35,409 nucleotides of DNA, from the NCBI GenBank assembly GCA_025453475.1, contig JALOQH010000001.1:1-35409 (forward strand). Direction: 5' to 3'. The notes below the pieces were generated by a model. That model saw nothing but the letters and a program-made list of their open reading frames with translations. It was not told the origin of the DNA and ran no database searches. A program made the position numbers and the translations under genes. Each line of letters begins with the position of its first letter. Position 1 is the first letter of the stretch. The stretch is from an archaeon (GTDB lineage Archaea; Nanobdellota; Nanobdellia; Pacearchaeales; GW2011-AR1). Shown here piece by piece: positions 6,970-21,252 of this stretch.

Positions 6970-7025
6970 GTTAGTTTAAATGTAAAAATAGGCTCAACTC
7001 AACCCATGTGACCTCAACTAGTAGT

Positions 7026-7056
7026 GCGTTTTTTCCCGTTATCAGCGGTAAAACGC
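7026..7056 (-). other. imperfect hairpin (GCGTTTT...AAAACGC with inner CCG/CGG) downstream of PCNA; possible terminator or small-RNA element
   Basis: The outer 7-bp stem (7026..7032 with 7050..7056) and an inner 3-bp stem were read from the sequence. A second inverted repeat, TAGTAATC/GATTACTA, lies at 7079..7086 and 7109..7116. Confidence 0.3.
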
Positions 7057-7132
7057 TCTCGTGCATTCAATTAGATTCTAGTAATCCATCAAAATGGGGC
7101 TATATAAAGATTACTACGGAGAACTGGGGGGT

Positions 7133-7867
7133 TTATTCCTGGTCGACTCTTTGCCTTGGGGCAAGAATAAAGCTTAGAATGACATTTCCTGTCGGGAAAT
7201 TAATCCTCATTGGATGGTCGTCGGAGAAATTGATTACTGTTTGGGATGAGATTTTGGCGCCTTTCACAAACTTCTGCAAGTACTCGAGGGAGAATCTTGC
7301 TGTGCTGTTGCCTGAATGGATTTCAATTTCTTCTGAGGAGAATTCGGCGCGGGCAGAGTTTAATGGGCCTGCTGCTTCAATCACGAATTTTGAGGGCTCT
7401 GCAACAAAGGTGCAGGCATCTGAGACAATCGAGCAGTCTTCAATAACTTCTGTAAATGCCTCTGAATCGATTTTGATGACAGAATTAAACTCCCATGTCG
7501 GCATTTCCTTCTCTTCGGCATCTATGTCAATCAGAGCGAGCGTGAAATCCCTCTTAACGCGGTCGTGAATGCTGAGTTTTATAGTATTGTCTGCCTTGGA
7601 AAGCAGAAGAGCGCTTCCTGGCTGGCATCTTCTGAGAACAGCCTTGAGATTCTCAAGATTCAATCCGAGAACCTCCTCAGTTTCCAGCTCATATTGCGAG
7701 AATAAATCCGCAGGTATCTTGAAGTAGACCATTGCGACATTAGCGGGGTCTATGGCTGTAAGAGATATGCCCTCTTTTGTTATTTTTAATTTAACCTCCG
7801 TAACGAGCTCTGAGATAATTGATATGATATCTGAGAGCAGTTTCGGATTATCCAACTTTAACTGCAT
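7133..7867 (-). CDS. pcn: DNA polymerase sliding clamp PCNA
   Basis: 244-aa ORF with the two-domain PCNA pattern (LTAIDPANVAMVYFKIP..., FSLEYLQKFVKGAK). Its length and acidic C-terminus are typical. Confidence 0.95.
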   Translation of the reverse strand: MQLKLDNPKLLSDIISIISELVTEVKLKITKEGISLTAIDPANVAMVYFKIPADLFSQYELETEEVLGLNLENLKAVLRRCQPGSALLLSKADNTIKLSIHDRVKRDFTLALIDIDAEEKEMPTWEFNSVIKIDSEAFTEVIEDCSIVSDACTFVAEPSKFVIEAAGPLNSARAEFSSEEIEIHSGNSTARFSLEYLQKFVKGAKISSQTVINFSDDHPMRINFPTGNVILSFILAPRQRVDQE

Positions 7868-7888
7868 GGATTAATTGGCAGATTTAAG

Positions 7889-7896
7889 CTTTTAAG
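7889..7896 (-). promoter_or_regulatory. putative TATA element of the PCNA promoter (leaderless)
   Basis: The minus-strand sequence CTTAAAAG is centred about 25 nt upstream of the ATG at 7867. No SD is present. Confidence 0.4.
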
Positions 7897-7916
7897 TATT
7901 GTTGTATTCAAAACAA

Positions 7917-7928
7917 TAATAATTATAA
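7917..7928 (+). promoter_or_regulatory. putative TATA element of the primase promoter
   Basis: TAATAATTATAA is centred about 28 nt upstream of the ATG at 7951, in the divergent spacer shared with PCNA. Confidence 0.45.
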
Positions 7929-7950
7929 TGCGCACTTGTTTGAGAGATGC

Positions 7951-9528: not shown

Positions 9529-9602
9529 AATATAACCAAGAAAGAGAAGAGTAGATTAAATATCTTTTGTCTTGGGAAGATTGTTTTGAAGATTGGATTT
9601 CT

Positions 9603-9610
9603 ATTTAAAT
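9603..9610 (+). promoter_or_regulatory. putative TATA element upstream of the 9634 ORF
   Basis: TATTTAAA is centred about 27 nt upstream of the ATG at 9634. It is only about 18 nt from the alternative ATG at 9625. Confidence 0.4.
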
Positions 9611-9633
9611 CTGAAATAACCATAATGATTTTG

Positions 9634-9909
9634 ATGGGGGAGACAAAAGCAGGAAGATTGGGCAGATTCCTTGCGATTTACATCGGTTACGCCATCAGGG
9701 AGATGCCTGCAGATGGAAAAAAAGAGTATTGCAAAAAGATTGAACAGGTGATTTCCGATTCTGCATTAAATGATGAGCTAGCAGAAATTGAAGAGTTTAA
9801 TCCTGCCTGCCCAGAGCATGCTGGCAGACTTGTGAAGCAGATTGCTAACCTTCAGTATAACCTTAACACAAGAAGGAACACAATCGAGGGGTTCTTAAGA
9901 GAACTTTGA
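9634..9909 (+). CDS. hypothetical small protein (about 91 aa), no recognisable domain
   Basis: The ORF lies in the primase-downstream spacer on the same strand. The start was chosen from TATA spacing; alternatives are ATG 9625 and TTG 9586. I recognise no motifs. Confidence 0.45.
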   Translation: MGETKAGRLGRFLAIYIGYAIREMPADGKKEYCKKIEQVISDSALNDELAEIEEFNPACPEHAGRLVKQIANLQYNLNTRRNTIEGFLREL

Positions 9910-9914
9910 GAACA

Positions 9915-9925
9915 TTTTTAAATAA
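9915..9925 (+). promoter_or_regulatory. putative TATA element, leaderless promoter of the 9944 gene
   Basis: TTTTTAAATAA is centred 24 nt upstream of the ATG at 9944. No SD is present. Confidence 0.5.
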
Positions 9926-9943
9926 CCATTACATTAAAATCCT

Positions 9944-11794
9944 ATGAAAAAAGGCAGGTTATTTGCAGTATATATTATAGCTGTTCTTGCTGCGATTTTG
10001 TTATCGATGGGTTCTGTAAGCGCTGCTGCCAACGACAGCATGGATACAAGCGCAAAAGCCTATAAATGCCTTGAAGACCAGATTTCAACAAAGGGCGCGA
10101 GTGCGCTGTCTTTGCAAGAGGCGGTTTTCTCAATGCTTGCCTTGGGCTCAAAAAGCGGACTTTCGGATAAGATAGAATCTGAGAAGGGAGCTTCATGCTG
10201 GCCGAAATCAGGATGCACGATAAGAGACAGTGCCCAGGTTTTGCTTGCGTACCAAAGAGCTGGAAAGGGCACAGGAGAGATTGAAAAATGGCTCGAGACA
10301 AAGAATGCAACTCCCACAGAACTAAAGTGGCTTCTTGAGATAGACATAACAAATGGAGTCAGCGCAAACTGCACAATAAATGACGGAACAAAGGAAAATA
10401 AGATAAAGATTCTTGACACAATGAGGCTGCAGGGAAGCCCTGGCAGCTGCATGGTAATTGACCCCTCTGGATTTATGCTAAGAATAAACAGCAATTGCAT
10501 GGGCACGCAGTTTACCATATCGTGCGACGCGGATTTTGTAACAACAATGCTTTACCAGAGAGGAACAGGCGGAACAGTGTTTGTCCCTTCTGAAACACAC
10601 TCCGCAGCTGCTTCAGGCACAACAACAGAGAGACCGAATGCAAAGTGCTTCAAGACAGCAAGCACATGCGATTATGAGGGCACTCTTTGGGCCGCGCTTG
10701 CATTGCAGAAACTCGGAAAGGATGTAAGCGAGTATATGCCTTACCTTCTTGCGCTTGCTCCGGATAATCCGAGATACTTCCCAGAAACATTCTTATATAT
10801 ATTGGGCGGCGGAGAAGAGCAATACTCCTCAATTGTGCAAAACCAGAAGCAGGGCAAATACTGGGAGCAGGCAGGAACACCTTACGGCAAATTCTACGAC
10901 ACTGCGCTTGCCCTGATGTCATTGAGCGGAAAGTCTTCTGCAGAGTACGATAATGCAAAGAACTATCTTTCAAGTGTTCAGACAAAAGACGGGTGCTGGA
11001 ATAATAATAACATAAAAGACACGGCATTCCTGCTTTACGGCGGATGGCAGAAGTCAGCGAGTACAGAGGCAAAAGCTGCGCCGTCGTGCACTGGAAGCGG
11101 ATTTTCATGCGAGAACCTATATGATTGCGTAAATGCAAATGGAACTGTCCAGTACGGCTATGAGTGCCTTGGTGCAGGATTGTCCTGCTGTTCTGTAAAA
11201 GTCGCTCAGCAGACATGCACTCAAAAAGGCGGAATGGTTTGCACCATTGAGCAGACATGCGATGGAAGATTGGAATCAGCGTCTGACGGCTCATGCTGTC
11301 TCGGCGGCGCGTGTATCGCGGCAGTAAGCCCAATAACTGAAACATGCGGGGGCGCAGGTGGAATCTGCAAAGATTCGTGCGAGTCCAACGAAGAATATCT
11401 CTCGGTTGAAACGTGCGGGCAGGCAACCCAGATTTGCTGCAGAACAAAAGCTGGCTCGCTTATGTGGCTTTGGATAATATTGCTCATAATCCTGATAGCC
11501 TTGGTTGTGCTTGGAATAATATACCGCGACAAGGTAAAAATCTGGTGGTTCAAGTTCAAGGAGAAATTCAAGAAGAAGCCAGCTCAGCCTCCTGCAGGAG
11601 GACTGCCTGCTGCAAGGATACTTCCCCCTGGAATGGCAAGACCGCCGATGGTGGGAGCACCAAGACCTCCAATGGGATATCCCATGAGGCCAATGCCTGC
11701 ACCTGCAAGAGCTGTTCCTCCAAGACAGCCTACTGCAAAGGACAGGGAAATGGAAGAGACACTTAAGAAGATAAAAGAGATAGGCAAGAAGTAA
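9944..11794 (+). CDS. type I anchored surface protein: signal peptide, prenyltransferase/terpene-cyclase-like alpha/alpha-toroid repeats, three Cys-rich modules, TM helix, Pro/Met-rich cytoplasmic tail
   Basis: The signal peptide is MKKGRLFAVYIIAVLAAILLSMGSVSA. Repeated helical-hairpin motifs are present (LQEAVFSMLALGS, RDSAQVLLAYQRAG, YEGTLWAALALQKLG, FYDTALALMSLSG) along with a QW-like motif, VQTKDGCWNNN..DTAFLLYGG. The TM helix is LMWLWIILLIILIALVVLGIIY. The tail is PPAGGLPAARILPPGMARPPMVGAPRPPMGYPMRPMPAP. Confidence 0.85.
   Translation: MKKGRLFAVYIIAVLAAILLSMGSVSAAANDSMDTSAKAYKCLEDQISTKGASALSLQEAVFSMLALGSKSGLSDKIESEKGASCWPKSGCTIRDSAQVLLAYQRAGKGTGEIEKWLETKNATPTELKWLLEIDITNGVSANCTINDGTKENKIKILDTMRLQGSPGSCMVIDPSGFMLRINSNCMGTQFTISCDADFVTTMLYQRGTGGTVFVPSETHSAAASGTTTERPNAKCFKTASTCDYEGTLWAALALQKLGKDVSEYMPYLLALAPDNPRYFPETFLYILGGGEEQYSSIVQNQKQGKYWEQAGTPYGKFYDTALALMSLSGKSSAEYDNAKNYLSSVQTKDGCWNNNNIKDTAFLLYGGWQKSASTEAKAAPSCTGSGFSCENLYDCVNANGTVQYGYECLGAGLSCCSVKVAQQTCTQKGGMVCTIEQTCDGRLESASDGSCCLGGACIAAVSPITETCGGAGGICKDSCESNEEYLSVETCGQATQICCRTKAGSLMWLWIILLIILIALVVLGIIYRDKVKIWWFKFKEKFKKKPAQPPAGGLPAARILPPGMARPPMVGAPRPPMGYPMRPMPAPARAVPPRQPTAKDREMEETLKKIKEIGKK
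11087..11440 (+). repeat. three tandem Cys-rich modules (protein-level repeat) preceding the TM helix
   Basis: Module A (11087..11191) is C-x6-C-x5-C-x12-C-x6-CC. Module B (11216..11314) is C-x7-C-x5-C-x11-CC-x4-C. Module C (11345..11440) is C-x6-C-x3-C-x11-C-x6-CC. Confidence 0.7.
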
Positions 11795-11803
11795 AACAGC
11801 AAA

Positions 11804-11812
11804 TTTATATAA
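11804..11812 (+). promoter_or_regulatory. putative TATA element, leaderless promoter of the 11833 gene
   Basis: TTTATATAA is centred 25 nt upstream of the ATG at 11833. Confidence 0.5.
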
Positions 11813-11832
11813 TTGTTCTATTTGGATTTGAT

Positions 11833-12897
11833 ATGAAAAGAATGCTGGTGTTCGCGATTGTTCTTATGATTTCCATGCAGGGAGTGTTTGCGATATCCAC
11901 TAATCTAAAAGACAGTTATAAGCCGGGGGAGACAGTTGCAAGCGAAATTTACGGGAATATCCTTGAGCCAATAACCAAAGATAGCGTGGAATTCAGAAGA
12001 GGGCATGTGCTTGTGCCGTTTGAATATGATTTGAAGAGGCTTGGCGACAAATACTATCTCTGGATGATTACTCCAGAAAATGAGGAGAACTACACGCTGA
12101 TTATAAAAGATATAACAACAACTGTTTCGGGCGAGATAAAAGAAGTAGACTATGAAAAGAATTTTACGACAAAGGGAAATCTAAGCGATTATTCTGTAAA
12201 GCCGGGTTTTATCTATGCACAAAGTGATTTTGAGCTGACAATGAATCTTAACCAGGACATGGAAAAGAGCATTCAGATTAACTTTCCGAACAAGACAAAT
12301 ATTGTGCTTAAGCCGGGAGAGAACAAATTTATGTTTTCCATAGGGGGAATCAATAAAACAGAGCTTAGAAATATCACAATAGGAAAATATTCCCTGCCAA
12401 TGTATGTTATTGTAAATAAAACAATAACGGCAGATGTTACTAATGCTACGAAGGAAGAGGAGGAGGAAGAAAAGGAAGAGAAAATTGAAATCCGCACAGA
12501 AAACCAGAGCGGGCAGAGATTCGAGAATTTCAGCATATATCCGTGCTCAGGAACTGACGGATTAAATGGGAAGATATGCGCGGCTGATGAAGTTTGCTCC
12601 GGAAAAGAAGTTGTTTCGGCAGATGGAATCTGCTGTAACATTGGAGAGTGCATGAAGAAAGAGCAGGTCAAGAAAGGAGGCAATGCGTGGATAGGCTATG
12701 TTGTTGCTGCCCTGGTAATTATCGGCGGGGTTTTTATCTGGATAAAATACAAGGGCGTTAAAAAGGAAGAGAACCCCATAGAAAAAGCTGCCCGGCAATT
12801 ATCTCCGAGATCACCTTACTTCTTTTTTGCCTTTTTCTTTGGAGATTTTGATTTCTTTTCCTTAACCTCGGCTGGAGCGGGTTGGGGCGCTGGCTGA
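11833..12897 (+). CDS. type I anchored, sequon-rich surface protein with poly-Glu linker and one Cys-rich juxtamembrane module
   Basis: The signal peptide is MKRMLVFAIVLMISMQGVFA, and there are about 10 N-x-S/T sequons. The linker is KEEEEEEKEEK. A Cys module (12544..12651) has the same spacing as module B of the upstream gene. The TM helix is AWIGYVVAALVIIGGVFIWI. The last 27 codons are antisense to the tail of the convergent gene. Confidence 0.8.
   Translation: MKRMLVFAIVLMISMQGVFAISTNLKDSYKPGETVASEIYGNILEPITKDSVEFRRGHVLVPFEYDLKRLGDKYYLWMITPENEENYTLIIKDITTTVSGEIKEVDYEKNFTTKGNLSDYSVKPGFIYAQSDFELTMNLNQDMEKSIQINFPNKTNIVLKPGENKFMFSIGGINKTELRNITIGKYSLPMYVIVNKTITADVTNATKEEEEEEKEEKIEIRTENQSGQRFENFSIYPCSGTDGLNGKICAADEVCSGKEVVSADGICCNIGECMKKEQVKKGGNAWIGYVVAALVIIGGVFIWIKYKGVKKEENPIEKAARQLSPRSPYFFFAFFFGDFDFFSLTSAGAGWGAG
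12544..12651 (+). repeat. fourth copy of the Cys-rich module (C-x10-C-x5-C-x11-CC-x4-C)
   Basis: CSGTDGLNGKICAADEVCSGKEVVSADGICCNIGEC aligns with CTQKGGMVCTIEQTCDGRLESASDGSCCLGGAC of the 9944 protein. Both sit directly N-terminal to the TM anchor. Confidence 0.65.
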
Positions 12898-13331
12898 GGG
12901 GCATTTTTGAATAATTGAGGTGCAACTTCCCGGAGTTTCCCAATAGCGAAATTCCTCTCTGCGATTATTCTCTTTGCGATTGCGTCATAATCATGCAATC
13001 TTGCCAGAAGTTTGTTGCCAAGCTCATTAAACTGGACGTTTGTCAGAGAAAAACTTGATGGGGAGATTATTTCTATATGGGCAGGCATATAGGCAAAAAT
13101 TATACCAAAGTAACTGTTCATTGATTCGAATTCTATAGTGACTTCCGCGAAAGTTGTGTATATGTCTTCGGAATCTTTCACTGCAACAGGTTCATGTACT
13201 ACCTTATCAATAACCTTTATGCCTTTTTCAGAGGATAACTTCGAAACCAATTCAGATAGAGCTGACTTTATGTGCTCTGCAGGTCTTCCAAGAATTTCAA
13301 GAACCATGACTGCCTGGATTTCTTTTGCCAT
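12816..13331 (-). CDS. hypothetical 171-aa protein with PQPAPQPAP linker and poly-Lys tail
   Basis: The ORF is clean, has its own TATA element and no signal peptide. Its C-terminus is PQPAPQPAPAEVKEKKSKSPKKKAKKK. I recognise no family. Confidence 0.7.
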   Translation of the reverse strand: MAKEIQAVMVLEILGRPAEHIKSALSELVSKLSSEKGIKVIDKVVHEPVAVKDSEDIYTTFAEVTIEFESMNSYFGIIFAYMPAHIEIISPSSFSLTNVQFNELGNKLLARLHDYDAIAKRIIAERNFAIGKLREVAPQLFKNAPQPAPQPAPAEVKEKKSKSPKKKAKKK

Positions 13332-13371: not shown

Positions 13372-14052
13372 TCAAATTTTGCGAAGGGATATTAGAATAA
13401 CAACAACTATGCAGATTGCGGCAAATGCATAAGCTATCCCGAGTCTGACTTTTTCATCATTTGATATGTAACTCTCCGTTATTTGAGAAGCAGGATTAAG
13501 CAGGGTTTTTTCACCTGATGCCTCTTGGAGAAGCTCCTGGAAAGATGAGTCTTGATTGGATGACGGGACAAAATCCTCTCCAGGAGATTTGTTTAGCACT
13601 CTCTCTGTTGCTGCGCTTTCTGATTCAGAGTCTTCGCCTGCATCTGATTCCTCATCTTCATCTGCCTCTTTTTCGCCAGCTATCAGGCTTATCTTTTGGC
13701 AGACTTCTGTATAACTCGTGGCTCCCTCTTTTCTCAACCTTGAACAAATTACAGCATTCTCTGAATAATCTGTTGCCCTTACTTCAAATTCTGTTTTCGA
13801 GGGGAAAGCTGATTTAATGTAGTAATATGGATTCTTCCATCCCTCGTTGTATATCTGGGAGATTATTTTTTGCGAGGAGTTATCCATAATTACTATCTTG
13901 ACGTCATAAATATCTGATGCTGCTGCAGAAATTGAAACCGAAAAACTCTCGTTTAGCTCTGCTTCTTCAGGACATGATACAGTAAATGACAGCGCAGATG
14001 ACAGCGAGATTAAGAATACAAAAAACAAACAGCTAATAGCCATATGCTTCAT
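13372..14052 (-). CDS. secreted, C-terminally TM-anchored protein with strongly acidic linker, co-transcribed with the nuclease
   Basis: GGAGGA lies 9 nt upstream of the ATG at 14052. The signal peptide is MKHMAISCLFFVFLISLSSALS. An acidic stretch EKEADEDEESDAGEDSESESAA is present. The C-terminal TM helix is LGIAYAFAAICIVVVILISL. It overlaps the nuclease 3' end by 20 nt. Confidence 0.75.
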   Translation of the reverse strand: MKHMAISCLFFVFLISLSSALSFTVSCPEEAELNESFSVSISAAASDIYDVKIVIMDNSSQKIISQIYNEGWKNPYYYIKSAFPSKTEFEVRATDYSENAVICSRLRKEGATSYTEVCQKISLIAGEKEADEDEESDAGEDSESESAATERVLNKSPGEDFVPSSNQDSSFQELLQEASGEKTLLNPASQITESYISNDEKVRLGIAYAFAAICIVVVILISLRKI

Positions 14053-14788
14053 AGTGCACAATCCTCCCTTCTGAATCGAATAGATACAGGCTGTCCCGGT
14101 CATTATTCCAGATATTCTCCTTGGAGTTCCAGAAGAGGTCTGTTGAATTGTCCTCTCCGGCTCCAGAGTGCAGAATTAAGATTCCTGCCATTTCTTTTTT
14201 GAAAGTGTATGTTTTTCTGCTCTCATCCTTCAGATACCAGCCGACAAGATTAATTTTTGGGCAGTTGTTCTTCAGTACAATTAGTTCATTCCTGCTGTCT
14301 ATCCCAGAATCGAAACATCCGAAATATTCTGAGTTGTTCCAGATTCCGATGGAGCGCGCTATTGCGGATTTCTCTGCTTTCGCAAACTCCTTTAATTCTG
14401 ATTCATCGACCAAGAACTTTGAGGCAAGCCCAAGAGAGACTATCTCCAGATTCAGGTATTCTGGAGCATATAGCCTTGCGAGAGTTCTTTGATATTTATC
14501 TTCTCCGAGATATTCCGCCTCTATTGACTTATTTACATATTTCGAAAGAAATTCAATTGCCTGCCTGTAATTTGGAGTGCCTTTCTCAGGAGCGTTTATA
14601 TTCACAAGGCGCAGTGTTTTCCCATCCTCTGTTTTTAGGGTATCGCCGTCAACAATGCTGGCTAGAATAATATTTTCACGTCTGATTTCTTTTGAAGCAT
14701 GCGTATCAATTTCTGTGAACAGGGAAATCGAGATTATTGCAAGAAGAGATACCATCAGCGAGAATATCAGAGCGTATCTTTTTTTCAT
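14033..14788 (-). CDS. membrane-anchored extracellular staphylococcal-nuclease (SNase/thermonuclease) fused to a lamin-tail-domain (LTD)
   Basis: There is an N-terminal TM anchor. SNase catalytic blocks are present: VDGDTL, LRLVNINAPE, DKYQRTLARLY. The C-terminal LTD pattern is ELIVLKNNCPKINLVGWYLKDESRKTYTF...ILHSGAG...WNNDRDSLYLFDSEGRIV. Confidence 0.9.
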   Translation of the reverse strand: MKKRYALIFSLMVSLLAIISISLFTEIDTHASKEIRRENIILASIVDGDTLKTEDGKTLRLVNINAPEKGTPNYRQAIEFLSKYVNKSIEAEYLGEDKYQRTLARLYAPEYLNLEIVSLGLASKFLVDESELKEFAKAEKSAIARSIGIWNNSEYFGCFDSGIDSRNELIVLKNNCPKINLVGWYLKDESRKTYTFKKEMAGILILHSGAGEDNSTDLFWNSKENIWNNDRDSLYLFDSEGRIVHYEAYGY

Positions 14789-14870: not shown

Positions 14871-15818
14871 ATGAAAAAAGGTGAAAGCGCGAAAATTTAT
14901 GATTTGGCGGTTATCGGCGCGGGAATTGCAGGTTTATCCGGAGCAATGTATGCCGGGAGGCTTGGTTTAAAGACCGTGTGTTTCGGCGCGAGCCATGGTT
15001 CTGAAATGCCTCTTGGGGGCGTCATAACGACTACTAAGCAGATAGAGAATTATCCGGGATTTGAGTCAATTAACGGCGGTGAACTCGCGGGCAACATGAA
15101 GAAACAGGCAGAAACGTATAAAGCTGAACTTAAAGAAGAGATGGTTGAAAGTGTTGAAAAAACAAAGGAAGGTTTTGCTGTAAAAACAGACAAGGGAAGA
15201 TATTCAAGCAGAACGGTTTTGTTCGCGACAGGCACAAAATGGAGAAAATTGGATATTCCCGGAGGAAAGGAGTTTGAAAACAGGGGAGTGGCTTACTGTG
15301 CGCTTTGTGATGGTCCTTTCTTCAAGAACAAGCAGGTTGCTATAATTGGGGGCTCGGATGTAGCAGTGAAAGATGCGCTTCTTCTTGCGGAGCATGCAAA
15401 AAAAGTTTATATTATCTATCGCGGAGAAAAAATAAGGGGCGAGAATGCCAATCTTGAGAGAATTGCAAAGAATAAAAAAATTGAAATAATAAACAATACA
15501 AATGTCAAAGAAATAACCGGCAATAAGACAGTCACTTCTGTTGTTCTTGACAGAAAGTTCAATGGAAAGGATAAACTTCAGGTTGATGGTGTTTTCGCGG
15601 CAATTGGCAATGTGCCATTATCAAAACTTGCCAAAGAGATTGGGGCGAGGCTCAATGACGCGGGAGAGATTATGACAAACCCTAAAACCGGCGAAACAAG
15701 CATAAACGGCGTTTTTGCTGCGGGCGACGTATCTGACAGCAGATTCAAACAGGCAATAACCAGCGCAGCTGAGGGGTGCATCGCTGCCCACTCTGCTTTC
15801 GAATACCTTAAGAAATAA
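14871..15818 (+). CDS. trxB: thioredoxin-disulfide reductase
   Basis: The FAD motif is DLAVIGAGIAGLSGA. The redox-active CxxC is CALCDG. The NAD(P)H motif is VAIIGGSDVA. The C-terminal FAD block is GVFAAGDV. At 315 aa it is of typical length. Confidence 0.93.
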   Translation: MKKGESAKIYDLAVIGAGIAGLSGAMYAGRLGLKTVCFGASHGSEMPLGGVITTTKQIENYPGFESINGGELAGNMKKQAETYKAELKEEMVESVEKTKEGFAVKTDKGRYSSRTVLFATGTKWRKLDIPGGKEFENRGVAYCALCDGPFFKNKQVAIIGGSDVAVKDALLLAEHAKKVYIIYRGEKIRGENANLERIAKNKKIEIINNTNVKEITGNKTVTSVVLDRKFNGKDKLQVDGVFAAIGNVPLSKLAKEIGARLNDAGEIMTNPKTGETSINGVFAAGDVSDSRFKQAITSAAEGCIAAHSAFEYLKK

Positions 15819-15862: not shown

Positions 15863-16330
15863 ATGACTCAAAGAATTGGGAAAAGGGGTATCTCTCCGGT
15901 TATTGCGACAGTGCTTTTGATATCCCTTGTGCTGATACTTGCAATTATAATCTATATGTGGGCAAGAGCATTTCTTCCAGAGCTGCTGCAAAAAGACCTC
16001 GGCAATGGACCTGAACCAATAGAGCGCGCCTGCGAGGCGGCAGTTTTTAATGCTGCCTATGATGTTGAGCAGGTTAGTGTAAGCAATGACGGGAATGTTC
16101 CTATATACGGTTTTGAGATATTGGTGAATGATGCTGCGACAGGTTCAATCATGTCCCTGGGCAGCTTTAACAAAACCATAAGAACCGGCGAGTCTACCAG
16201 TTTTGAGGTTGGTTATGTGGAAACAGGCAGTGAGATTACAATTATCCCTTCGTTAATCGGCGAGAATGAAGACGGCGAAAAAAAGTCCTATGTCTGCGGG
16301 GAAGATTATGCTCTCAGCGTAATTGTTTAA
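15863..16330 (+). CDS. archaeal type IV pilin-like protein (class III signal peptide, KRG-ISPVIATV type)
   Basis: The N-terminus MTQRIGKRGISPVIATVLLISLVLILAIIIYMW matches the archaeal pilin N-terminal domain pattern (G-[VI]-SPVI + hydrophobic helix). Confidence 0.85.
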   Translation: MTQRIGKRGISPVIATVLLISLVLILAIIIYMWARAFLPELLQKDLGNGPEPIERACEAAVFNAAYDVEQVSVSNDGNVPIYGFEILVNDAATGSIMSLGSFNKTIRTGESTSFEVGYVETGSEITIIPSLIGENEDGEKKSYVCGEDYALSVIV

Positions 16331-16331
16331 G

Positions 16332-16871
16332 ATGAAAAGAAATAAAAGAGGAGTTTCTCCGGTTATTGCGACAGTATTTGTATTGATGCTTACTGTAAGC
16401 GCTGTTGCGCTTATTGCAGGATTCCTTGTTCCATTTGTAAAAAAAAGCCTCTATAAAAGCAGCGAGTGCGTAAATTACAAAGAGGTTTATAGTTTTGAAG
16501 AATCTTTGGGATATAACTGTGTCCAGAAAACAGAGGGATTGTATGCGATTTCGGTGAAGGCTAAGTTTGACAAAGAACTTCTTGGCGGTGTCGCCGGGTT
16601 CAGGGTTGTGTTCAAAAATGCAGACGGCACTTCCAAGGGAATAGAAGTAAAAAATGATACTTCTGCCTCAAACGAGCAGGGAGGAATAAGGCTGCTTGGC
16701 AGAGAAGGACTCAGGATTCCTGCCGCAGGGGAGACAATAACCTATGTTTACAGGGGGGCCAGCGGTGAAACATTTGCCTCTGCAGAAGTCTATCCTGTCT
16801 TGAATTCAGGCACCATCTGCGGAGAAAAGGACAGTATAGAATTAATACAGTGCAAAAATAGGATATCATAA
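16332..16871 (+). CDS. archaeal type IV pilin-like protein (second paralogue)
   Basis: The N-terminus is MKRNKRGVSPVIATVFVLMLTVSAVALIAGF. The ATG at 16332 lies 1 nt after the upstream stop; the track's 16323 start is TTG. Confidence 0.85.
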   Translation: MKRNKRGVSPVIATVFVLMLTVSAVALIAGFLVPFVKKSLYKSSECVNYKEVYSFEESLGYNCVQKTEGLYAISVKAKFDKELLGGVAGFRVVFKNADGTSKGIEVKNDTSASNEQGGIRLLGREGLRIPAAGETITYVYRGASGETFASAEVYPVLNSGTICGEKDSIELIQCKNRIS

Positions 16872-16872
16872 A

Positions 16873-17400
16873 ATGAAAAAGGGGCAGGTTTGGATTGAAA
16901 CAGTATTGTACACTCTTATAGGCCTGGCCTTGATAGGCATAGCTCTTGGATTCATAATGCCCAAGATAAATGAGACAAGAGACAGAGTTTTAGTCGAGCA
17001 GGCTGCAAGCTCCCTTAGCGTTTTGGATGAGAAGATAAACGAAGTTGTCCAAAAAGGGATTGGCAATGTGCGAGAGAATGAATTTATGATGAAGAAAGGA
17101 GAGCTTTACTTTAACTCTTCTACTGATGAGATTTTATTTGTTATACGGGATTTGGGAAGACCGTACTCTCAGCCAGGGGTAGAGATTCCACAGGGGAGAA
17201 TAACCATAAAAACCGTGACTGAACAGAAGGGCAATAGTGTTTACATAAAGGCAGACTACAGGGCAAACATCACGTTTTCTGGAAAAGAAGAGCTTGTCAA
17301 ATTCAGCGCTGCCCAGATACCATATAAATTCTATATTGAGAACAAAGGAAACGTCAATACCAACATCTGGATTGATATTGATGAGGGTTCTAACAGATAG
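16873..17400 (+). CDS. pilin-like protein with class III signal of the KKG-Q...E type
   Basis: The N-terminus MKKGQVWIETVLYTLIGLALIGIALGF has Q at +1 and E at +5 after the Gly, resembling the QxSxExxxL class III signal. There is a 1-nt spacer from the upstream gene. Confidence 0.7.
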   Translation: MKKGQVWIETVLYTLIGLALIGIALGFIMPKINETRDRVLVEQAASSLSVLDEKINEVVQKGIGNVRENEFMMKKGELYFNSSTDEILFVIRDLGRPYSQPGVEIPQGRITIKTVTEQKGNSVYIKADYRANITFSGKEELVKFSAAQIPYKFYIENKGNVNTNIWIDIDEGSNR

Positions 17401-17439
17401 ATTTAAATTGAATATCGAGCATAATAATGTATCTGAAAG

Positions 17440-18966
17440 ATGGTGGTTAATATTGACTTAAGTCCGAGCATTCCTGCTCTGCAGAAAATAGAGGACAAAA
17501 CAAAAATAAATGTGCGTTATGCACTTATTTCCCCGTATGCTTTTGCCCATATACACTGGGATAAAAACATTGGAGAAGTAGTATATGAGATTGAAGAGCC
17601 GGTTCTTGACTATTCAGAAAAAGAAATGCTTGAAAAGGTAGAGAATGCGATGCTTGAGATCCTAAATGTGAATGTTGCTGTCGAAAAAACAATGGAAGCA
17701 ATAACTGAATATCTTGACAAAACTGCGAAGCTCCTGATTAATGAACTAAATCTTGGGATGAGCAATGAGACATATGATAAGATATTCTACTATTTATTCA
17801 GGGACTTTATCGGTTTCAATGAGATAGACCCCTTGCTCAGGGACTATTTTATTGAAGATATAGAATGCAACGGGATAAACACTCCGGTTTACATCATCCA
17901 CAGGGTTTTTAGAAATCTAAGGACAAGCATTGTGTTCAAGGACATGGACAGGTCAGCGAGTTTTGTTGAAAAGCTGGCTCAGAGAGCTGGAAGATATATC
18001 TCCTATGCCCAGCCTTTGCTTGATGGCACGCTTCCGGATGGCAGCAGAGTCAATGCGACTTATACAAAAGACGTCACATCGAAAGGCCCAACGTTTACAA
18101 TAAGAAAATTCACAAAGATACCGTGGACCCCTACGCAGCTTATTGCGTTCAATACAGTCAGCCCCGAAATGATGGCTTATTTCTGGATATTGCTCCAGTA
18201 TAAATCAAGCATTCTGGTAGCTGGAGGCACTGCTTCCGGGAAAACAACTTTTCTGAATGCAATAGCGTTCTTTATCCCGCCAGAGGCAAGAGTTGTAAGC
18301 ATTGAAGATACCAGAGAAATAAACCTCCCCCGGGAGAACTGGCTGCCTGCTGTCGCTCGACCTTCGATTGGAACAGGAAAGGTTGGAGAAGTTGATTTGT
18401 TTGAACTTCTAAAGAGCTCATTCAGGCAAAGTCCGGACTACCTGATAGTCGGAGAGGTAAGAGGCAAGGAGGCTTTCGTACTTTTCCAAGGCATGGCTTC
18501 CGGGCACGCGTCATTGAGCACCATGCACGCAGATTCTGTCGATACCCTGATAAGAAGACTTGAGACTCCTCCGATTGAACTATCGCCGACCCTTGTAAAT
18601 ACGCTGGATTGTGTAGCAATTGCCACACATGCAGTGGTGAATCAGCAGGAAACAAGAAGAATCAGGGATGTTTCGGAGATTGTTAATGTGAACAAGGATG
18701 GTACGGCGATTGTAAACACTCCGCTTATATGGGATCCGAAGAGAGATGTGTTCTATTTCAAAAAACAAAGCAGGGTATTTGAGAAGATATCACAAAGATA
18801 CGGAATCCCGATTGAAAAACTGCAAAGGGAATTCGAGCTGAGGGCGAAGATGCTCTATGAACTTGCCAAGCAGAAGGTATTCGGTTTTGAGGAGATTCAG
18901 AAAATCATCATTGACTATTACAAAAACCCTGTGGAAGTGCTTGCAAGGTACAATCTCGGGGGATAA
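17440..18966 (+). CDS. type IV pilus/secretion assembly ATPase (FlaI/PilB-VirB11 superfamily)
   Basis: Walker A is GGTASGKTTFLN. The Asp box is RVVSIEDTREINL. Walker B is PDYLIVGEVRGKEA. The His box is ASGHASLSTMHADS. Confidence 0.95.
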   Translation: MVVNIDLSPSIPALQKIEDKTKINVRYALISPYAFAHIHWDKNIGEVVYEIEEPVLDYSEKEMLEKVENAMLEILNVNVAVEKTMEAITEYLDKTAKLLINELNLGMSNETYDKIFYYLFRDFIGFNEIDPLLRDYFIEDIECNGINTPVYIIHRVFRNLRTSIVFKDMDRSASFVEKLAQRAGRYISYAQPLLDGTLPDGSRVNATYTKDVTSKGPTFTIRKFTKIPWTPTQLIAFNTVSPEMMAYFWILLQYKSSILVAGGTASGKTTFLNAIAFFIPPEARVVSIEDTREINLPRENWLPAVARPSIGTGKVGEVDLFELLKSSFRQSPDYLIVGEVRGKEAFVLFQGMASGHASLSTMHADSVDTLIRRLETPPIELSPTLVNTLDCVAIATHAVVNQQETRRIRDVSEIVNVNKDGTAIVNTPLIWDPKRDVFYFKKQSRVFEKISQRYGIPIEKLQREFELRAKMLYELAKQKVFGFEEIQKIIIDYYKNPVEVLARYNLGG

Positions 18967-18976
18967 GTATTTAAAC
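18967..18976 (+). promoter_or_regulatory. putative internal TATA element in front of the 53-aa ORF
   Basis: GTATTTAAAC is centred 25-26 nt upstream of the ATG at 18997, the same spacing seen at other first genes. Confidence 0.4.
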
Positions 18977-18996
18977 AATTTTTGATTTTTCTATTG

Positions 18997-19158
18997 ATGA
19001 AAAAAGAGGATGTGGCTCTAATTGCGAAATCCTTAACCAGCATAAAAAACGCCATTGACGAGCTTGATTCTGCCATTAAGAAAAACGATGCAACCCGTGC
19101 AAATTCCGCCAAGGAAAGGATATTGGAGATGCAAATCCAGATAAACCGGCTGCTATGA
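18997..19158 (+). CDS. unannotated 53-aa helical micro-protein between ATPase and platform genes
   Basis: Hand translation gives MKKEDVALIAKSLTSIKNAIDELDSAIKKNDATRANSAKERILEMQIQINRLL*. It is below the ORF-track cutoff. Its stop overlaps the next gene's ATG as ATGA (19155..19158), and a TATA-like element sits at -25. Confidence 0.5.
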   Translation: MKKEDVALIAKSLTSIKNAIDELDSAIKKNDATRANSAKERILEMQIQINRLL

Positions 19159-20396: not shown

Positions 20397-20397
20397 A

Positions 20398-21252
20398 ATG
20401 AGAATAAAAAAAGTTGCAATTGTTGGGATATCTGCGGGTCTTCTGATATTAATCCTGGATTTAATCTTCTTCCGCGGTGAGAAAATATTCAGTTTTATAG
20501 TCGGAATAGCGTTTGTTGTTGCGGCAATGCCTTTTGTACTGGATATTGTACGGGAGGGCAAGAGAGAAGAAGAAGTGAGCGAAATGTTCTTGGAATTCTC
20601 CAGGAATCTTGCAGAGAGCGTGAACACCGGAACACCTATAAGCAAGAGCATAATCAACATGGCAAAGAAAAATTACGGCGCATTGACGCCCCATGTACAA
20701 AAACTTGCAAATCAAATCTCGCTCGGAATACCTGTCGGACGGGCGCTTGAAACATTTGCTGAAGATGTAGACAACAAGGTGATAAGACGGGCTGTTGCGC
20801 TTATCCGGGAAGCTGAGAAAGCTGGCGGAGAAATAGATTATATCCTTGAATCAGTAGCGAACTCTATTTCAGAGGTTGAGAAGCTTAAAAAAGAGAGGAA
20901 ATCTGCGATATTCAACCTGATTGTCCAGGGATATATCATATTTTTCATCTTCATCGGCATAATGCTTGTGATGGAATTTAAGATACTGCCCCTGACTTAC
21001 GGAACAAGTTCTTTTGGCATAGCAACAGGAGACATAAGCTCGTTCAGCTCCGGCGTTACAATGAGCGCTGAAAAATTAAATCCTGCGCAGATATCCCAAC
21101 TGTTCCTCTATCTTCTGCTAACGCAGGGATTTTTTGCCGGACTGACTATCGGAAAATTAAGCGAGGGTTCTATTAAGGCAGGGATAAAACATTCATTCAT
21201 ACTGACAATTGCGGCTTTCCTTATCTCTACAGGCGTCAGAGCGCTTATCTAG
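20398..21252 (+). CDS. pilus platform protein, second T2SS-F/TadC-FlaJ-like domain
   Basis: The T2SS-F-type region is EFSRNLAESVNTGTPISKSII...LANQISLGIPVGRALETFA...LIREAEKAGGEIDYILESVA, plus TM helices. There is a 1-nt spacer from the upstream gene. Confidence 0.85.
   Translation: MRIKKVAIVGISAGLLILILDLIFFRGEKIFSFIVGIAFVVAAMPFVLDIVREGKREEEVSEMFLEFSRNLAESVNTGTPISKSIINMAKKNYGALTPHVQKLANQISLGIPVGRALETFAEDVDNKVIRRAVALIREAEKAGGEIDYILESVANSISEVEKLKKERKSAIFNLIVQGYIIFFIFIGIMLVMEFKILPLTYGTSSFGIATGDISSFSSGVTMSAEKLNPAQISQLFLYLLLTQGFFAGLTIGKLSEGSIKAGIKHSFILTIAAFLISTGVRALI

What the first reader, a model, noticed from the sequence alone, without database searches (positions are those of the whole stretch)
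9944..12897. Two adjacent surface proteins share a juxtamembrane Cys-rich module; the first carries terpene-cyclase/prenyltransferase-like alpha/alpha-toroid repeats
What the sequence shows:
- The 616-aa protein has at least five helical-hairpin repeats of the type D/Y-x-T/A-A/L-x-A-L-x-x-L-G, plus a QW-like motif (VQTKDGCW).
- It then has three Cys modules in two spacing flavours. Modules A and C are C-x6-C-x3/5-C-x11/12-C-x6-CC. Module B is C-x7-C-x5-C-x11-CC-x4-C.
- The neighbouring 354-aa protein ends its ectodomain with one flavour-B module (C-x10-C-x5-C-x11-CC-x4-C), in the same position relative to its TM helix.

Inference: the shared stalk module indicates a paralogous surface-display scaffold. 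An extracellular isoprenoid-binding-type toroid is an attractive candidate for binding or extracting host membrane lipids, if this organism lacks lipid biosynthesis as many DPANN do. This is a hypothesis only.
Basis: partly seen in the sequence, partly recalled or inferred. Interest (0 to 1): 0.65.

Follow-up and report, generated by a model that had tools for sequence, protein, structure and literature searches.

The report
Conserved Pacearchaeota surface toroid receptor pair
Two neighbouring genes of a tiny symbiotic archaeon encode membrane-anchored surface proteins that share a small disulfide-rich stalk module; the larger one carries a squalene-cyclase-like helical ring with no enzyme motifs, so it is probably a conserved binding receptor whose ligand is still unknown.

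Summary
ORF A (9944-11794, 616 aa) and ORF B (11833-12897, 354 aa) are real type I membrane proteins.

**ORF A.** AlphaFold2 (pLDDT 88) predicts:
- a 12-helix alpha/alpha toroid split by a 122-residue beta-sandwich insert;
- three 6-Cys mini-domains;
- a TM helix, a Pro-rich tail and a strongly conserved C-terminal helix.

The toroid resembles squalene-hopene cyclase, C3d and transcobalamin/intrinsic factor, but only remotely. It falls below the Pfam cutoff and lacks DxDD, CGEQ and Zn-ligand motifs, so it is probably a non-catalytic binding head.

**ORF B.** It has two Ig-like domains, one Cys module and a TM helix.

**The shared module.** B's module is homologous to A's middle module (hhalign E = 1e-10). 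It is not private to the pair. It is a mobile extracellular mini-domain found in at least 517 protein clusters with many architectures.

**Distribution.** The A family occurs in at least 257 species-level DPANN genomes labelled Pacearchaeota, Woesearchaeota or Nanoarchaeota, with one invariant architecture. B lies just downstream in about 86% of loci.

**Verdict.** The lipid-extraction idea is neither supported nor excluded. This is a new, uncharacterised family of a known fold class.

The parts
9917..9924 (+). TATA-box-like element TTTAAATA, about 24 nt upstream of the ATG of A; possible promoter of a leaderless mRNA
   Evidence: Read directly from the sequence. Inference only.
9944..11794 (+). 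ORF A, 616 aa: type I membrane surface protein, made of a toroid head, a three-module stalk, a TM helix and a conserved cytoplasmic tail
9944..10024 (+). A residues 1-27: signal peptide (MKKGR, hydrophobic helix, VSA|A)
   Evidence: Helix 4-23 in AF2; alignment
10040..10303 (+). A residues 33-120: N-terminal five helices of the alpha/alpha toroid (contains C42, the C85-W86-P-K-x-G-C91 loop and W116)
   Evidence: AF2 helices 35-50, 57-67, 71-79, 93-106 and 111-119 with pLDDT >95
10304..10669 (+). A residues 121-242: beta-sandwich inserted into an outer-to-inner loop of the toroid (12 strands; Cys 143, 169, 185, 194, 235, 242)
   Evidence: AF2. Foldseek finds beta-sandwich matches such as FliC D2/D3 and pilins, all weak. 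Conservation 0.63.
10670..11059 (+). A residues 243-372: C-terminal seven helices of the toroid. Includes the invariant C242-D-Y-E-G-T-L-W, W307, and the QW-like AKNYLSSVQTKDGCW followed by NNNNIKDTAF
   Evidence: AF2; squalene-hopene cyclase QW alignment; sub-threshold SQHop_cyclase_C at residues 303-362
11087..11191 (+). A residues 382-416: Cys module A (C-x6-C-x5-C-x12-C-x6-CC)
11216..11314 (+). A residues 425-457: Cys module B (C-x7-C-x5-C-x11-CC-x4-C), homologous to the module in ORF B
11345..11440 (+). A residues 468-499: Cys module C (C-x6-C-x3-C-x11-C-x6-CC), weakly related to module A
11459..11572 (+). A residues 506-543: TM helix plus a conserved basic/aromatic juxtamembrane helix (YRDKVKIWWFKFK)
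   Evidence: AF2 helices 506-526 and 528-542; conservation
11573..11734 (+). A residues 544-597: disordered Pro/Arg-rich cytoplasmic linker
   Evidence: pLDDT <50; low conservation, 0.31
11735..11791 (+). A residues 598-616: conserved C-terminal amphipathic helix D-[KR]-E-M-E-E-T-L-K-K-L-K-E-M-S-K
   Evidence: Conservation 0.70, equal to the toroid. A strict pattern for the motif matches 58 of 80 species-level homologues, and the tails of the five inspected, including the most divergent, all end in the KKLKEMSK-type sequence.
11804..11811 (+). TATA-box-like element TTTATATA, about 26 nt upstream of the ATG of B
   Evidence: Read directly from the sequence. Inference only.
11833..12897 (+). ORF B, 354 aa: type I membrane surface protein
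11893..12408 (+). B residues 21-192: two tandem Ig-like beta-sandwich domains (21-113 and 120-192)
   Evidence: AF2 pLDDT >93. Foldseek finds tandem Ig proteins (titin, filamin, pIgR), E about 1e-5.
12430..12528 (+). B residues 200-232: disordered acidic linker. It stands where longer homologues carry a third domain of about 100 aa.
   Evidence: pLDDT <50; alignment
12544..12651 (+). B residues 238-273: Cys module of flavour B (C-x10-C-x5-C-x11-CC-x4-C)
12685..12756 (+). B residues 285-308: TM helix, followed by a short basic cytoplasmic tail
   Evidence: AF2 helix 285-308

Best explanation
**What A is.** A is the window's copy of a lineage-wide surface receptor of Pacearchaeota-type DPANN archaea. 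No second copy was seen in the window or in any of the 80 loci. It is a Sec-exported type I membrane protein.

**The head (shown by prediction).** The membrane-distal head is a single 12-helix alpha/alpha toroid. It belongs to the structural class of terpenoid cyclases, prenyltransferases, TED domains and transcobalamin. A disulfide-bonded beta-sandwich is inserted into one of the outer-to-inner loops.

**Orientation (inferred from topology).** All the long conserved loops, and the beta-sandwich, lie on one face of the toroid. The opposite face has short loops and leads into the stalk. So the conserved face should point away from the cell, and it is the likely binding site.

**Non-catalytic (shown).** No catalytic or metal-binding motif of any enzyme family with this fold is conserved. 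The head is therefore most likely a binding module, not an enzyme.

**Ligand (inferred).** The head is held off the membrane by three small disulfide-knotted modules. Because the head is uniformly conserved across an order-level clade, its ligand is probably chemically invariant. Candidates are a lipid or isoprenoid, a cofactor, a glycan, or a component of the cell's own envelope. A variable host protein is less likely.

**Coupling to the cytoplasm (inferred).** A conserved basic juxtamembrane helix, a flexible Pro-rich linker and a highly conserved C-terminal helix probably couple the protein to a conserved cytoplasmic partner.

**B.** B has two Ig-like domains on one copy of the same stalk module. 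It is a usually adjacent companion surface protein. It may be a co-receptor, or simply another protein displayed in the same way.

**The module.** The shared module is a generic, shuffled extracellular stalk/spacer domain. It is not evidence that A and B are paralogues.
For: Architecture and fold:
- AF2 gives mean pLDDT 87.9, with >93 throughout the head.
- Foldseek hits with high probability are all alpha/alpha toroids: squalene-hopene cyclase 2sqc (prob 0.97), 8pak (0.98), C3d (0.98), and the intrinsic factor alpha-domain (TM-score normalised to the target 0.54).
- A family profile ranks squalene-hopene cyclase first in the PDB (E = 0.014), through QW-like repeats.
- SQHop_cyclase_C is sub-threshold in 11 of 30 members and in the family consensus.

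Non-catalytic:
- CGEQ occurs in 4 of 120 members and DxDD in 6 of 120. There is no conserved His and no CxxC.

Conservation and distribution:
- At least 419 clusters at 90% identity; all with a source name are called hypothetical except one JGI label, 'competence protein ComGC', and none has a Pfam domain.
- 257 species-level genomes.
- The domain order is the same in 71 of 80 species-level homologues by HMM; the other 9 show only missed or doubled module calls. This includes the 34%-identical one.
- The C-terminal helix is as conserved as the toroid.

Topology:
- Signal peptide, positive-inside flanks, 28 ectodomain Cys (an even number), and sequons at N30 and N121 conserved in 66 and 86 of 120 members.

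B:
- for the fold.
- B lies on the same strand within 1.3 kb downstream in 64 of 74 loci long enough to judge.

Module:
-.

Neighbourhood fits a surface/scavenging theme:
- A secreted SNase-LTD nuclease, another TM-anchored surface protein and a type IV pilus cluster lie nearby.
Against: - No ligand, partner or expression data exist.
- All fold and sequence similarities to characterised toroids are weak. No Foldseek E-value is below 1e-3, and all sequence hits fall below curated cutoffs.
- Many of the most conserved residues (Cys, QW-type Trp/Gln, D/E-T/S-A helix caps) can be explained as purely structural. Conservation therefore does not prove a binding site.
- The A-B adjacency sits inside a block of general synteny (PCNA, primase, A, B, p171, nuclease, TrxR). 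Each gene has its own TATA-like box, so adjacency may not mean functional coupling.
- A evolves faster (about 43% identity) than the housekeeping neighbours (57-71%).
Confidence: 0.45

Rival explanations
1. The toroid is an isoprenoid/lipid-binding head. It extracts or receives membrane lipids from a host cell for a lipid-auxotrophic DPANN archaeon. This is a specific sub-case of the best explanation.
For: - The closest sequence-level relative is squalene-hopene cyclase, through QW-like repeats.
- Lipid biosynthesis pathways are commonly incomplete in DPANN cluster 2, which includes Pacearchaeota, and lipid transfer from host is documented for N. equitans (PMC7414124).
- Pacearchaeota have the most limited metabolism among DPANN (PMC8204110).
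- The family is lineage-wide, as expected for an essential scavenging function.
Against: - QW motifs are structural staples, not ligand determinants.
- The inner helices are rich in Ala, Leu and Gly, which suggests tight packing rather than a wide aromatic-lined funnel. This is read from the sequence only.
- The conserved distal-face loops are rich in Asn, Gln, Lys, Arg and Asp as well as aromatics.
- C3d and transcobalamin match equally well.
- No lipid transporter is encoded next to it.
- The lipid genes of this genome could not be checked from a 35-kb window.
Confidence: 0.15
2. A transcobalamin / intrinsic-factor-like carrier. A small polar-amphipathic cofactor, such as a corrinoid, is trapped between the distal face of the toroid and the inserted beta-sandwich, and is then delivered to an uptake system.
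For: - The intrinsic factor alpha-domain gives the highest target-normalised TM-score (0.54), and transcobalamin entries recur among the hits.
- The arrangement of a toroid plus a beta domain on the same face is analogous to transcobalamin, where the ligand sits between the alpha and beta domains (established structural knowledge, recalled, not tested here).
- The conserved head fits an invariant small-molecule ligand.
Against: - No Cobalamin_bind or DUF4430 Pfam signal, even at E = 10.
- The beta domain is inserted rather than C-terminal.
- The Foldseek E-values are 0.5-0.7, which is not significant.
- No BtuCDF or ECF transporter lies in the neighbourhood.
Confidence: 0.1
3. A glycan-binding or glycan-processing head, meaning a lectin or a cryptic (alpha/alpha)6 glycoside hydrolase or lyase with an accessory beta-sandwich. 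It would act on the host cell wall or on the cell's own envelope glycans.
For: - (Alpha/alpha)6 toroid plus beta-sandwich is the commonest architecture of polysaccharide hydrolases and lyases (established knowledge, recalled).
- The conserved distal-face loops combine Trp/Tyr with Asn, Asp, Glu and Arg: Y244, E245, N353, N356, R358, D359.
- Pacearchaeota are proposed to attack bacterial cell walls (PMC8204110).
Against: - No GH or PL family appears among the fold hits with high probability, and none appears in Pfam.
- The acidic residues at the helix N-termini recur in every hairpin, as a capping motif would.
- The only PDB sequence hit to a glycosyl hydrolase is non-significant (E = 0.12).
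Confidence: 0.12
4. A structural envelope protein. A, with B and the neighbouring p243, forms or anchors the S-layer or pseudo-periplasm of the cell. The conserved tail ties the envelope to a cytoplasmic scaffold, and there is no external ligand.
For: - A C-terminal TM anchor plus a stalk is typical of archaeal S-layer and anchor proteins (established knowledge, recalled).
- The family is lineage-wide with an invariant architecture.
- Three TM-anchored surface proteins are clustered.
- The cytoplasmic motifs are conserved.
Against: - S-layer proteins usually evolve fast and are heavily glycosylated. A has only two moderately conserved sequons.
- An alpha/alpha toroid has no precedent known to me as a lattice former.
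- No oligomerisation evidence could be obtained.
Confidence: 0.13
5. A TED-like covalent binder or protease trap related to alpha-2-macroglobulin and complement C3.
For: - C3d is among the best fold hits (prob 0.98).
- The invariant C242-D-Y-E245 has the i / i+3 spacing of the CGEQ thioester and sits at the start of an inner helix.
Against: - The i+3 residue is an invariant Glu, not Gln, so spontaneous thioester formation is not expected.
- CGEQ-type motifs occur in only 4 of 120 members, at non-homologous places.
- The head has 10 Cys, an even number, all conserved, which fits all being in disulfides.
- There are no MG or CUB domains.
Confidence: 0.03

Closest known systems
Squalene-hopene cyclase / class II triterpene cyclases (Pfam SQHop_cyclase_N/C; PDB 2sqc, 8pak)
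   Same: - Alpha/alpha toroid fold.
- QW-type motif (K-x-Y-L-x3-Q-x3-G-x-W), and invariant Trp in outer-to-inner loops.
- Inner helices start with D/E-T/S-A.
- It is the top hit for both the family profile (E = 0.014) and Pfam (sub-threshold).
   Different: - One toroid, not two.
- No DxDD and no membrane-dipping active-site channel.
- Extracellular, disulfide-rich and TM-anchored.
- A beta-sandwich is inserted in the ring.
- Scores are below the Pfam gathering cutoff (14 bits against 26.1).
Thioester domain (TED) of complement C3 / alpha-2-macroglobulin (C3d, PDB 3oxu, 1ghq)
   Same: - A single extracellular 12-helix toroid combined with beta-sandwich domains.
- Foldseek probability up to 0.98 over about 150 columns, rmsd 4-5 A.
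- A conserved Cys at the start of an inner helix.
   Different: - No CGEQ thioester.
- The topology is inverted: here the beta-sandwich is inserted into the toroid, whereas the TED is inserted into a CUB domain.
- No MG domains.
Transcobalamin / intrinsic factor (alpha6/alpha6 barrel plus beta domain; PDB 2v3n, 2pmv, 4zrp)
   Same: - A non-enzymatic extracellular toroid with disulfides, paired with a beta domain.
- The best target-normalised TM-score (0.54 for the intrinsic factor alpha-domain).
- It works as a ligand carrier and receptor ligand.
   Different: - No sequence or Pfam similarity.
- The beta domain is inserted, not C-terminal.
- The protein is membrane-anchored, with a stalk and a cytoplasmic tail.
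- The E-values are not significant.
Lineage-specific membrane/extracellular hypothetical protein families of Pacearchaeota and Woesearchaeota (modules 222 and 98 of Castelle et al. 2021, PMC8204110)
   Same: - Restricted to this DPANN clade.
- No functional prediction.
- Predicted membrane-bound or extracellular.
   Different: - That study lists families only as unannotated.
- I could not verify that this family is one of them.
- No structure or domain analysis is given there.
Small disulfide-rich extracellular repeat modules (EGF-like, beta-defensin-like, MopE-type Cys motifs)
   Same: - About 35 residues, 6 Cys, beta-hairpin rich.
- Occur singly next to a TM helix or in tandem arrays in surface proteins.
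   Different: - No significant Pfam or PDB sequence match. Defensin_beta_2 gives only E = 8.4 for module C, and there is no PDB hit for the module B/X profile.
- The Cys pattern C-x7-C-x5-C-x11-CC-x3/4-C, with conserved G and D-G, appears to be unnamed.

Membership tests
Squalene-hopene/oxidosqualene cyclase (Pfam SQHop_cyclase_C, PF13243) | Score above the Pfam gathering threshold (26.1 bits) | tested here: not met
   12.2 bits (E = 0.094) for the window protein. Best among 30 members: E = 0.024. Family consensus: 14.1 bits.
Squalene-hopene/oxidosqualene cyclase | Catalytic DxDD (or equivalent acid) motif | tested here: not met
   DxDD is present in only 6 of 120 ectodomains and is not at a conserved column.
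Squalene-hopene/oxidosqualene cyclase | Two alpha/alpha barrel domains (beta-gamma didomain) | tested here: not met
   The AF2 model has 12 helices, which is one toroid.
Squalene-hopene/oxidosqualene cyclase | Repeated QW motifs | tested here: inconclusive
   One clear QW-like motif (residues 338-352) aligns to the cyclase's QW repeats. Invariant Trp sits at equivalent loops of three other hairpins, but the Q/G spacing is degenerate.
Protein prenyltransferase beta subunit (Pfam Prenyltrans, PF00432) | Prenyltrans repeat hits and a Zn2+ site (Asp, Cys, His) | tested here: not met
   No PF00432 hit even at E = 10. There is a single, non-invariant His in the whole ectodomain.
A2M/C3 thioester domain (TED) | CGEQ thioester motif | tested here: not met
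   C[GA]EQ occurs in 4 of 120 members, and not at a conserved site. The conserved motif is C-D-Y-E.
A2M/C3 thioester domain (TED) | Embedded in a CUB domain and flanked by MG domains | tested here: not met
   No such domains are present. The beta-sandwich is inserted into the toroid instead.
Transcobalamin / intrinsic factor (Pfam Cobalamin_bind plus DUF4430) | Sequence membership and a C-terminal beta domain | tested here: not met
   No Pfam hit. The Foldseek E-values are 0.5-0.7, although the target-normalised TM-score reaches 0.54 for the intrinsic factor alpha-domain.
Alpha/alpha toroid fold class (terpenoid cyclase / prenyltransferase-like superfamily) | Closed ring of six helical hairpins (six inner and six outer helices) | tested here: met
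   AF2 predicts 12 helices with pLDDT >93. All high-probability Foldseek hits are toroids.
Alpha/alpha toroid fold class | A central or distal cavity able to hold a ligand | not testable with these tools
   The tools return no model coordinates.
Shared juxtamembrane Cys module (unnamed; C-x7-C-x5-C-x11-CC-x3/4-C) | Six conserved Cys with this spacing, plus conserved G and D-G, recognised by an independent profile | tested here: met
   hhalign gives E = 1.1e-10 between profiles built from separate families. Reciprocal HMM detection works in both directions.
Glycoside hydrolase / polysaccharide lyase (alpha/alpha)6 families | Family HMM match and a conserved catalytic acid pair | tested here: inconclusive
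   No Pfam match. Conserved acids exist (D243, E245, D319, D359), but they recur as helix N-caps. Activity is not testable here.

The most novel reading that the evidence does not exclude
A is the long-sought acquisition receptor by which lipid- and cofactor-auxotrophic Pacearchaeota take a hydrophobic molecule from a partner cell or the environment. The cargo could be archaeol or another isoprenoid lipid, a quinone, or a corrinoid. The cyclase-derived toroid would have been recruited to the cell surface as a non-catalytic ligand trap, capped by the inserted beta-sandwich. The conserved Pro-rich tail and C-terminal helix would hand the cargo, or a signal, to a cytoplasmic machine. The helix resembles an ESCRT-III MIM1 peptide.
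Probability: 0.12. Interest if true: 0.85.

Novelty: new variant of a known kind. Interest (0 to 1): 0.5.

Why it matters
How DPANN archaea with almost no biosynthetic capacity obtain lipids, cofactors and other building blocks, and how they hold on to partners, is an open question. No Pacearchaeota member appears to be cultured (from memory, not checked here).

This family is present in at least 257 species-level genomes. It has one fixed architecture and a confidently predicted head domain. That makes it one of the few concrete, lineage-wide surface candidates that can be expressed and tested.

The analysis also defines a small disulfide-rich stalk module that recurs in many surface proteins of ultra-small archaea, and possibly of CPR bacteria. 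This module is useful for annotating their 'dark' surface proteomes.

If the head is only structural, the finding is an ordinary lineage-specific envelope protein.

Tried and rejected
1. **Single-sequence searches.** Pfam, NCBIfam and PDB sequence searches gave nothing above threshold.
2. **Foldseek on the full-length model.** No E-value was below 1e-3, because the insert splits the toroid and the chain has many domains. Only the probability and TM columns were informative.
3. **Thioester idea (C242-D-Y-E245 against CGEQ).** Rejected: the i+3 residue is an invariant Glu, the Cys count is even, and there is no CGEQ.
4. **Enzyme motifs.** DxDD, DDxxD, NSE/DTE, HExxH, CxxC and a Zn-ligand His are all not conserved.
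5. **A conserved third gene between A and B.** Where the gap is larger, the inserts are heterogeneous. They include HicAB-like and PIN/AbrB-like toxin-antitoxin pairs and unrelated ORFs, so there is no conserved partner.
6. **Operon inference.** It is weakened by general synteny with PCNA and primase, and by separate TATA-like boxes.
7. **Internal-repeat detection between hairpins.** Only marginal.
8. **Literature searches.** Searches for DPANN or Pacearchaeota toroid, Cys-rich or structure-predicted surface proteins found no description of this family.
9. **ESCRT survey.** A survey of ESCRT systems (PMC10936438) does not mention DPANN at all, so the MIM1-like tail idea could not be tested.
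10. **Model coordinates.** None are exposed to the scripting sandbox, so pocket, surface-conservation and disulfide-geometry analyses were impossible.
11. **Unused search.** The third homologous-protein search was not used, because the top 120 rows would again be filled by the family itself.

Full report
**1. What is there**

The window is archaeal. It encodes ribosomal proteins L3, L4 and S3, PCNA, a primase, a proteasome subunit, the termination factor FttA, OapB/OapC and type IV pilus genes. All close relatives of the two target proteins come from metagenome-assembled genomes (MAGs) labelled Pacearchaeota, Woesearchaeota or Nanoarchaeota.

The cysteine spacings are also exactly as stated.

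**2. Protein A**

*Family.* A word-indexed search found at least 419 clusters at 90% identity. They align full-length at 42-57% identity. All with a source name are called hypothetical except one JGI label, 'competence protein ComGC', and none has a Pfam domain. A scan of one genome per GTDB species found 257 genomes encoding a relative.

In 80 of these loci the domain order is the same: head, module A, module B, module C, TM, Pro-rich linker, C-terminal helix. HMMs detect this order in 71 of 80. The other nine show only missed or doubled module calls. The 34%-identical homologue has the same order.

*Predicted structure.* AlphaFold2 with 120 homologues gives mean pLDDT 87.9 and pTM 0.75. The predicted elements are:
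- a signal-peptide helix (residues 4-23);
- five helices (35-119);
- a block of about 12 beta-strands (121-242);
- seven helices (244-367);
- three small beta-rich modules (380-501);
- a TM helix (506-526) continuing into a basic/aromatic helix (528-542);
- a disordered Pro/Arg-rich stretch (544-590);
- a C-terminal helix (598-615).

The head is therefore a 12-helix alpha/alpha toroid with a 122-residue beta-sandwich inserted between helices 5 and 6.

*Fold relatives.* Foldseek against the PDB gave no hit with E below 1e-3. This is expected for a multi-domain chain with a split toroid. Every high-probability hit is nevertheless a toroid:
- squalene-hopene cyclase 2sqc (prob 0.97) and 8pak (prob 0.98, rmsd 4.0 A over 184 columns);
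- C3d (prob 0.98);
- transcobalamin, and the intrinsic factor alpha-domain (TM-score normalised to the target 0.54).

*Sequence relatives.* A profile of the head ranks squalene-hopene cyclase first among all PDB sequences (E = 0.014). It aligns '...DTslallal...aknyllsiQtkeGcW' to five QW repeats of the cyclase. Pfam SQHop_cyclase_C is hit below threshold by the window protein (12 bits), by 11 of 30 members and by the family consensus (14 bits against a cutoff of 26.1).

The structural-class assignment is therefore supported. Membership of any curated family is not.

*Motifs.* No enzyme or ligand motif of the related families is conserved. CGEQ occurs in 4 of 120 members and DxDD in 6 of 120. 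There is no conserved His, and no CxxC or HExxH.

The invariant positions are mostly structural:
- 10 Cys in the head;
- Trp 86, 129, 307 and 352 in the outer-to-inner loops (QW-type positions);
- D/E-T/S-A caps at the start of each inner helix.

The positions not obviously explained this way are Y244, E245, K94, Q98, N353, N356 and R358, plus D134, D197, F198, Y204 and E229 in the insert.

*Orientation.* This is inferred from topology alone. All long conserved loops, and the beta-sandwich, belong to outer-to-inner connections, which lie on one face of the ring. The other face has short loops and leads into the stalk. The conserved face should therefore point away from the cell.

*Conservation by region* (mean frequency of the top residue):

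| Region | Conservation |
|---|---|
| Toroid, N-terminal half | 0.62 |
| Beta-sandwich insert | 0.63 |
| Toroid, C-terminal half | 0.70 |
| Cys modules | 0.52-0.57 |
| Pro-rich linker | 0.31 |
| C-terminal helix | 0.70 |

The C-terminal helix D-[KR]-E-M-E-E-T-L-K-K-L-K-E-M-S-K is as conserved as the head. This argues for a conserved cytoplasmic partner.

**3. Protein B**

The search found 81 relatives. Close ones have 323-330 aa. A longer form of about 400-430 aa carries an extra middle domain.

AlphaFold2 (pLDDT 81) predicts the following:
- two Ig-like sandwiches (residues 21-113 and 120-192);
- a disordered acidic linker;
- the Cys module (238-275);
- a TM helix (285-308).

Foldseek finds tandem Ig proteins at E about 1e-5.

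**4. The shared module**

Profiles built separately from A-family module B and from the B-family module align with hhalign probability 97% and E = 1.1e-10. Modules A and C are weakly related to each other (E = 1.2e-3). Cross-flavour pairs are not significant.

HMMs of either family detect the other family's module. They detect nothing else in the six-frame ORFs of the window.

A joint 36-position profile was searched against 1.84 billion cluster representatives. It found 517 proteins at E of 1e-3 or better. The top 150 break down as follows:
- about 82 are B-family and 7 are A-family;
- 61 have other architectures;
- these include tandem arrays of 2-5 modules and fusions with CARDB, beta-helix, dockerin, F5/8-C and MopE-type motifs;
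- they also include other large Pacearchaeota proteins and proteins from bins labelled Patescibacteria or Nealsonbacteria.

Of 142 newly retrieved representatives, 97 have the order module, TM, short tail.

The module is therefore a generic, mobile extracellular stalk/spacer mini-domain. It has no Pfam or PDB counterpart. Sharing it does not make A and B paralogues.

**5. Genomic context**

In 80 species-level loci the order is PCNA(-), primase(+), A(+), B(+), p171(-), p243(-), SNase-LTD nuclease(-), TrxR(+), and it is widely conserved. B lies on the same strand within 1.3 kb downstream of A in 64 of 74 loci long enough to judge.

Where the A-B gap is enlarged, the inserted genes are heterogeneous. 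They include toxin-antitoxin pairs and unrelated ORFs.

A and B each have a TATA-like box about 25 nt upstream of the ATG. They may therefore be transcribed separately as leaderless mRNAs.

Median identity to the window copy across loci:

| Protein | Median identity |
|---|---|
| PCNA | 71% |
| TrxR | 60% |
| Primase | 57% |
| A | 43% |
| B | 42% |
| p243 | 33% |

A is thus moderately conserved for a surface protein, but it is not housekeeping-like.

**6. Interpretation**

*Shown:* the architecture, the fold class, the homology of the module, the distribution of the family, and the absence of catalytic motifs.

*Inferred:* A is a non-catalytic binding head displayed on a disulfide-rich stalk and coupled to the cytoplasm through a conserved tail. 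Uniform conservation across an order-level clade favours a chemically invariant ligand, or a component of the cell's own envelope, over a variable host protein.

Literature confirms that lipid pathways are commonly incomplete in this DPANN cluster and that host-to-symbiont lipid transfer occurs in N. equitans (PMC7414124). Nothing in the sequence distinguishes a lipid ligand from a cofactor (transcobalamin-like), a glycan, or no ligand at all. The TED-like covalent-binder reading is essentially excluded.

**7. Novelty**

Castelle et al. 2021 (PMC8204110) report Pacearchaeota-specific modules of unannotated protein families, many of them membrane-bound or extracellular. This family fits that description. 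I found no paper that describes its structure or function.

It is a new, uncharacterised family within a known fold class. Its arrangement is unusual:
- a toroid with an inserted beta-sandwich;
- a triple Cys-module stalk;
- a conserved cytoplasmic tail.

I rate it as a new variant of a known kind, with interest 0.5.

**8. Limits**

- Whole-genome gene content could not be checked.
- There are no expression data.
- All similarity to characterised toroids is weak.

Noticed in passing
window 11735-11791 (A residues 598-616): The extreme C-terminus of A, D600-K-E-M-E-E-T-L-K-K-L-K, follows a Pro-rich disordered linker. It fits five of six positions of the ESCRT-III MIM1 consensus (D/E)xxLxxRLxxL(K/R), which I recalled from memory. 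The motif family is retained across species-level homologues (strict pattern in 58 of 80). It could be a docking peptide for a MIT-domain or other cytoplasmic protein, or it could be a chance match in a charged amphipathic helix.
   Followed up: partly
window 9529-9943 (ORF 9586-9909, +): The primase-A intergenic gap is 415 nt here, against a median of about 56 nt in 66 related loci. It holds a 107-aa ORF with no Pfam hit and no homologue in any of the 80 loci. It is either a lineage-specific insertion or a spurious ORF.
   Followed up: partly
window 12757-12897 (B residues 309-354), overlapping 12816-13331 (-): B in this window carries a Phe-rich C-terminal extension (…SPYFFFAFFFGDFDFFSLTSAGAGWGAG), about 25-30 residues longer than its 323-330-aa close homologues. 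The ORF overlaps the 3' end of the convergent gene p171 by 82 nt. The extension reads as the antisense of that gene's Lys-rich tail. It looks like a lost or shifted stop codon, not a functional tail.
   Followed up: partly
loci L036, L063, L059, L013 and others, between the A and B homologues: The A-B intergenic space is a hotspot for small insertions in other genomes. Examples are a HicA/HicB-like pair (L036), a PIN/AbrB-like pair (L063) and unrelated ORFs elsewhere.
   Followed up: partly
window 13372-14788 (-): Two further secreted or surface proteins lie beside the pair. One is a 243-aa protein with a signal peptide, an acidic linker and a C-terminal TM helix, with no Pfam hit; it is found in 42 of 80 loci. 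The other is a nuclease with SNase and lamin-tail domains, found in 60 of 80 loci, which fits extracellular nucleic-acid scavenging. The two ORFs overlap by about 70 nt as called, so the start of the 243-aa ORF is probably further downstream.
   Followed up: partly
window 15863-21252 (+): A type IV pilus-like cluster: three small ORFs, the first with a sub-threshold Pilin_N hit and the other two with no Pfam hit, a T2SSE-type ATPase (508 aa) and two T2SSF membrane proteins. It lies directly downstream of a thioredoxin reductase gene (14871-15818).
   Followed up: no
window 22091-27000 (+): Four consecutive ORFs (234, 140, 324 and 909 aa) have no Pfam match at E of 1e-3 or better. They follow an FmrO-type rRNA methyltransferase on the opposite strand.
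   Followed up: no
window 27884-28712 (+) and about 7000-7940: OapB and OapC (origin-associated protein) genes are present. Separately, gene orientation switches at the divergent PCNA/primase pair, where the cumulative GC skew reaches its minimum (about 6-7 kb). Either place might lie near a replication origin.
   Followed up: no
protein P0186 (a 531-aa B homologue, seen): One B-family member carries an insertion of about 120 aa with extra Cys motifs. One of them (C-x6-C-x3-C-x11-C-x6-CC) has the spacing of A's module C. This shows that both module flavours are shuffled between surface proteins.
   Followed up: no
proteins P0209 and P0353: Proteins carrying the flavour-B Cys module are also deposited under CPR bacterial names (Patescibacteria, Nealsonbacteria). 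This could mean real sharing of the module between ultra-small archaea and bacteria. It could also be mis-binning.
   Followed up: no
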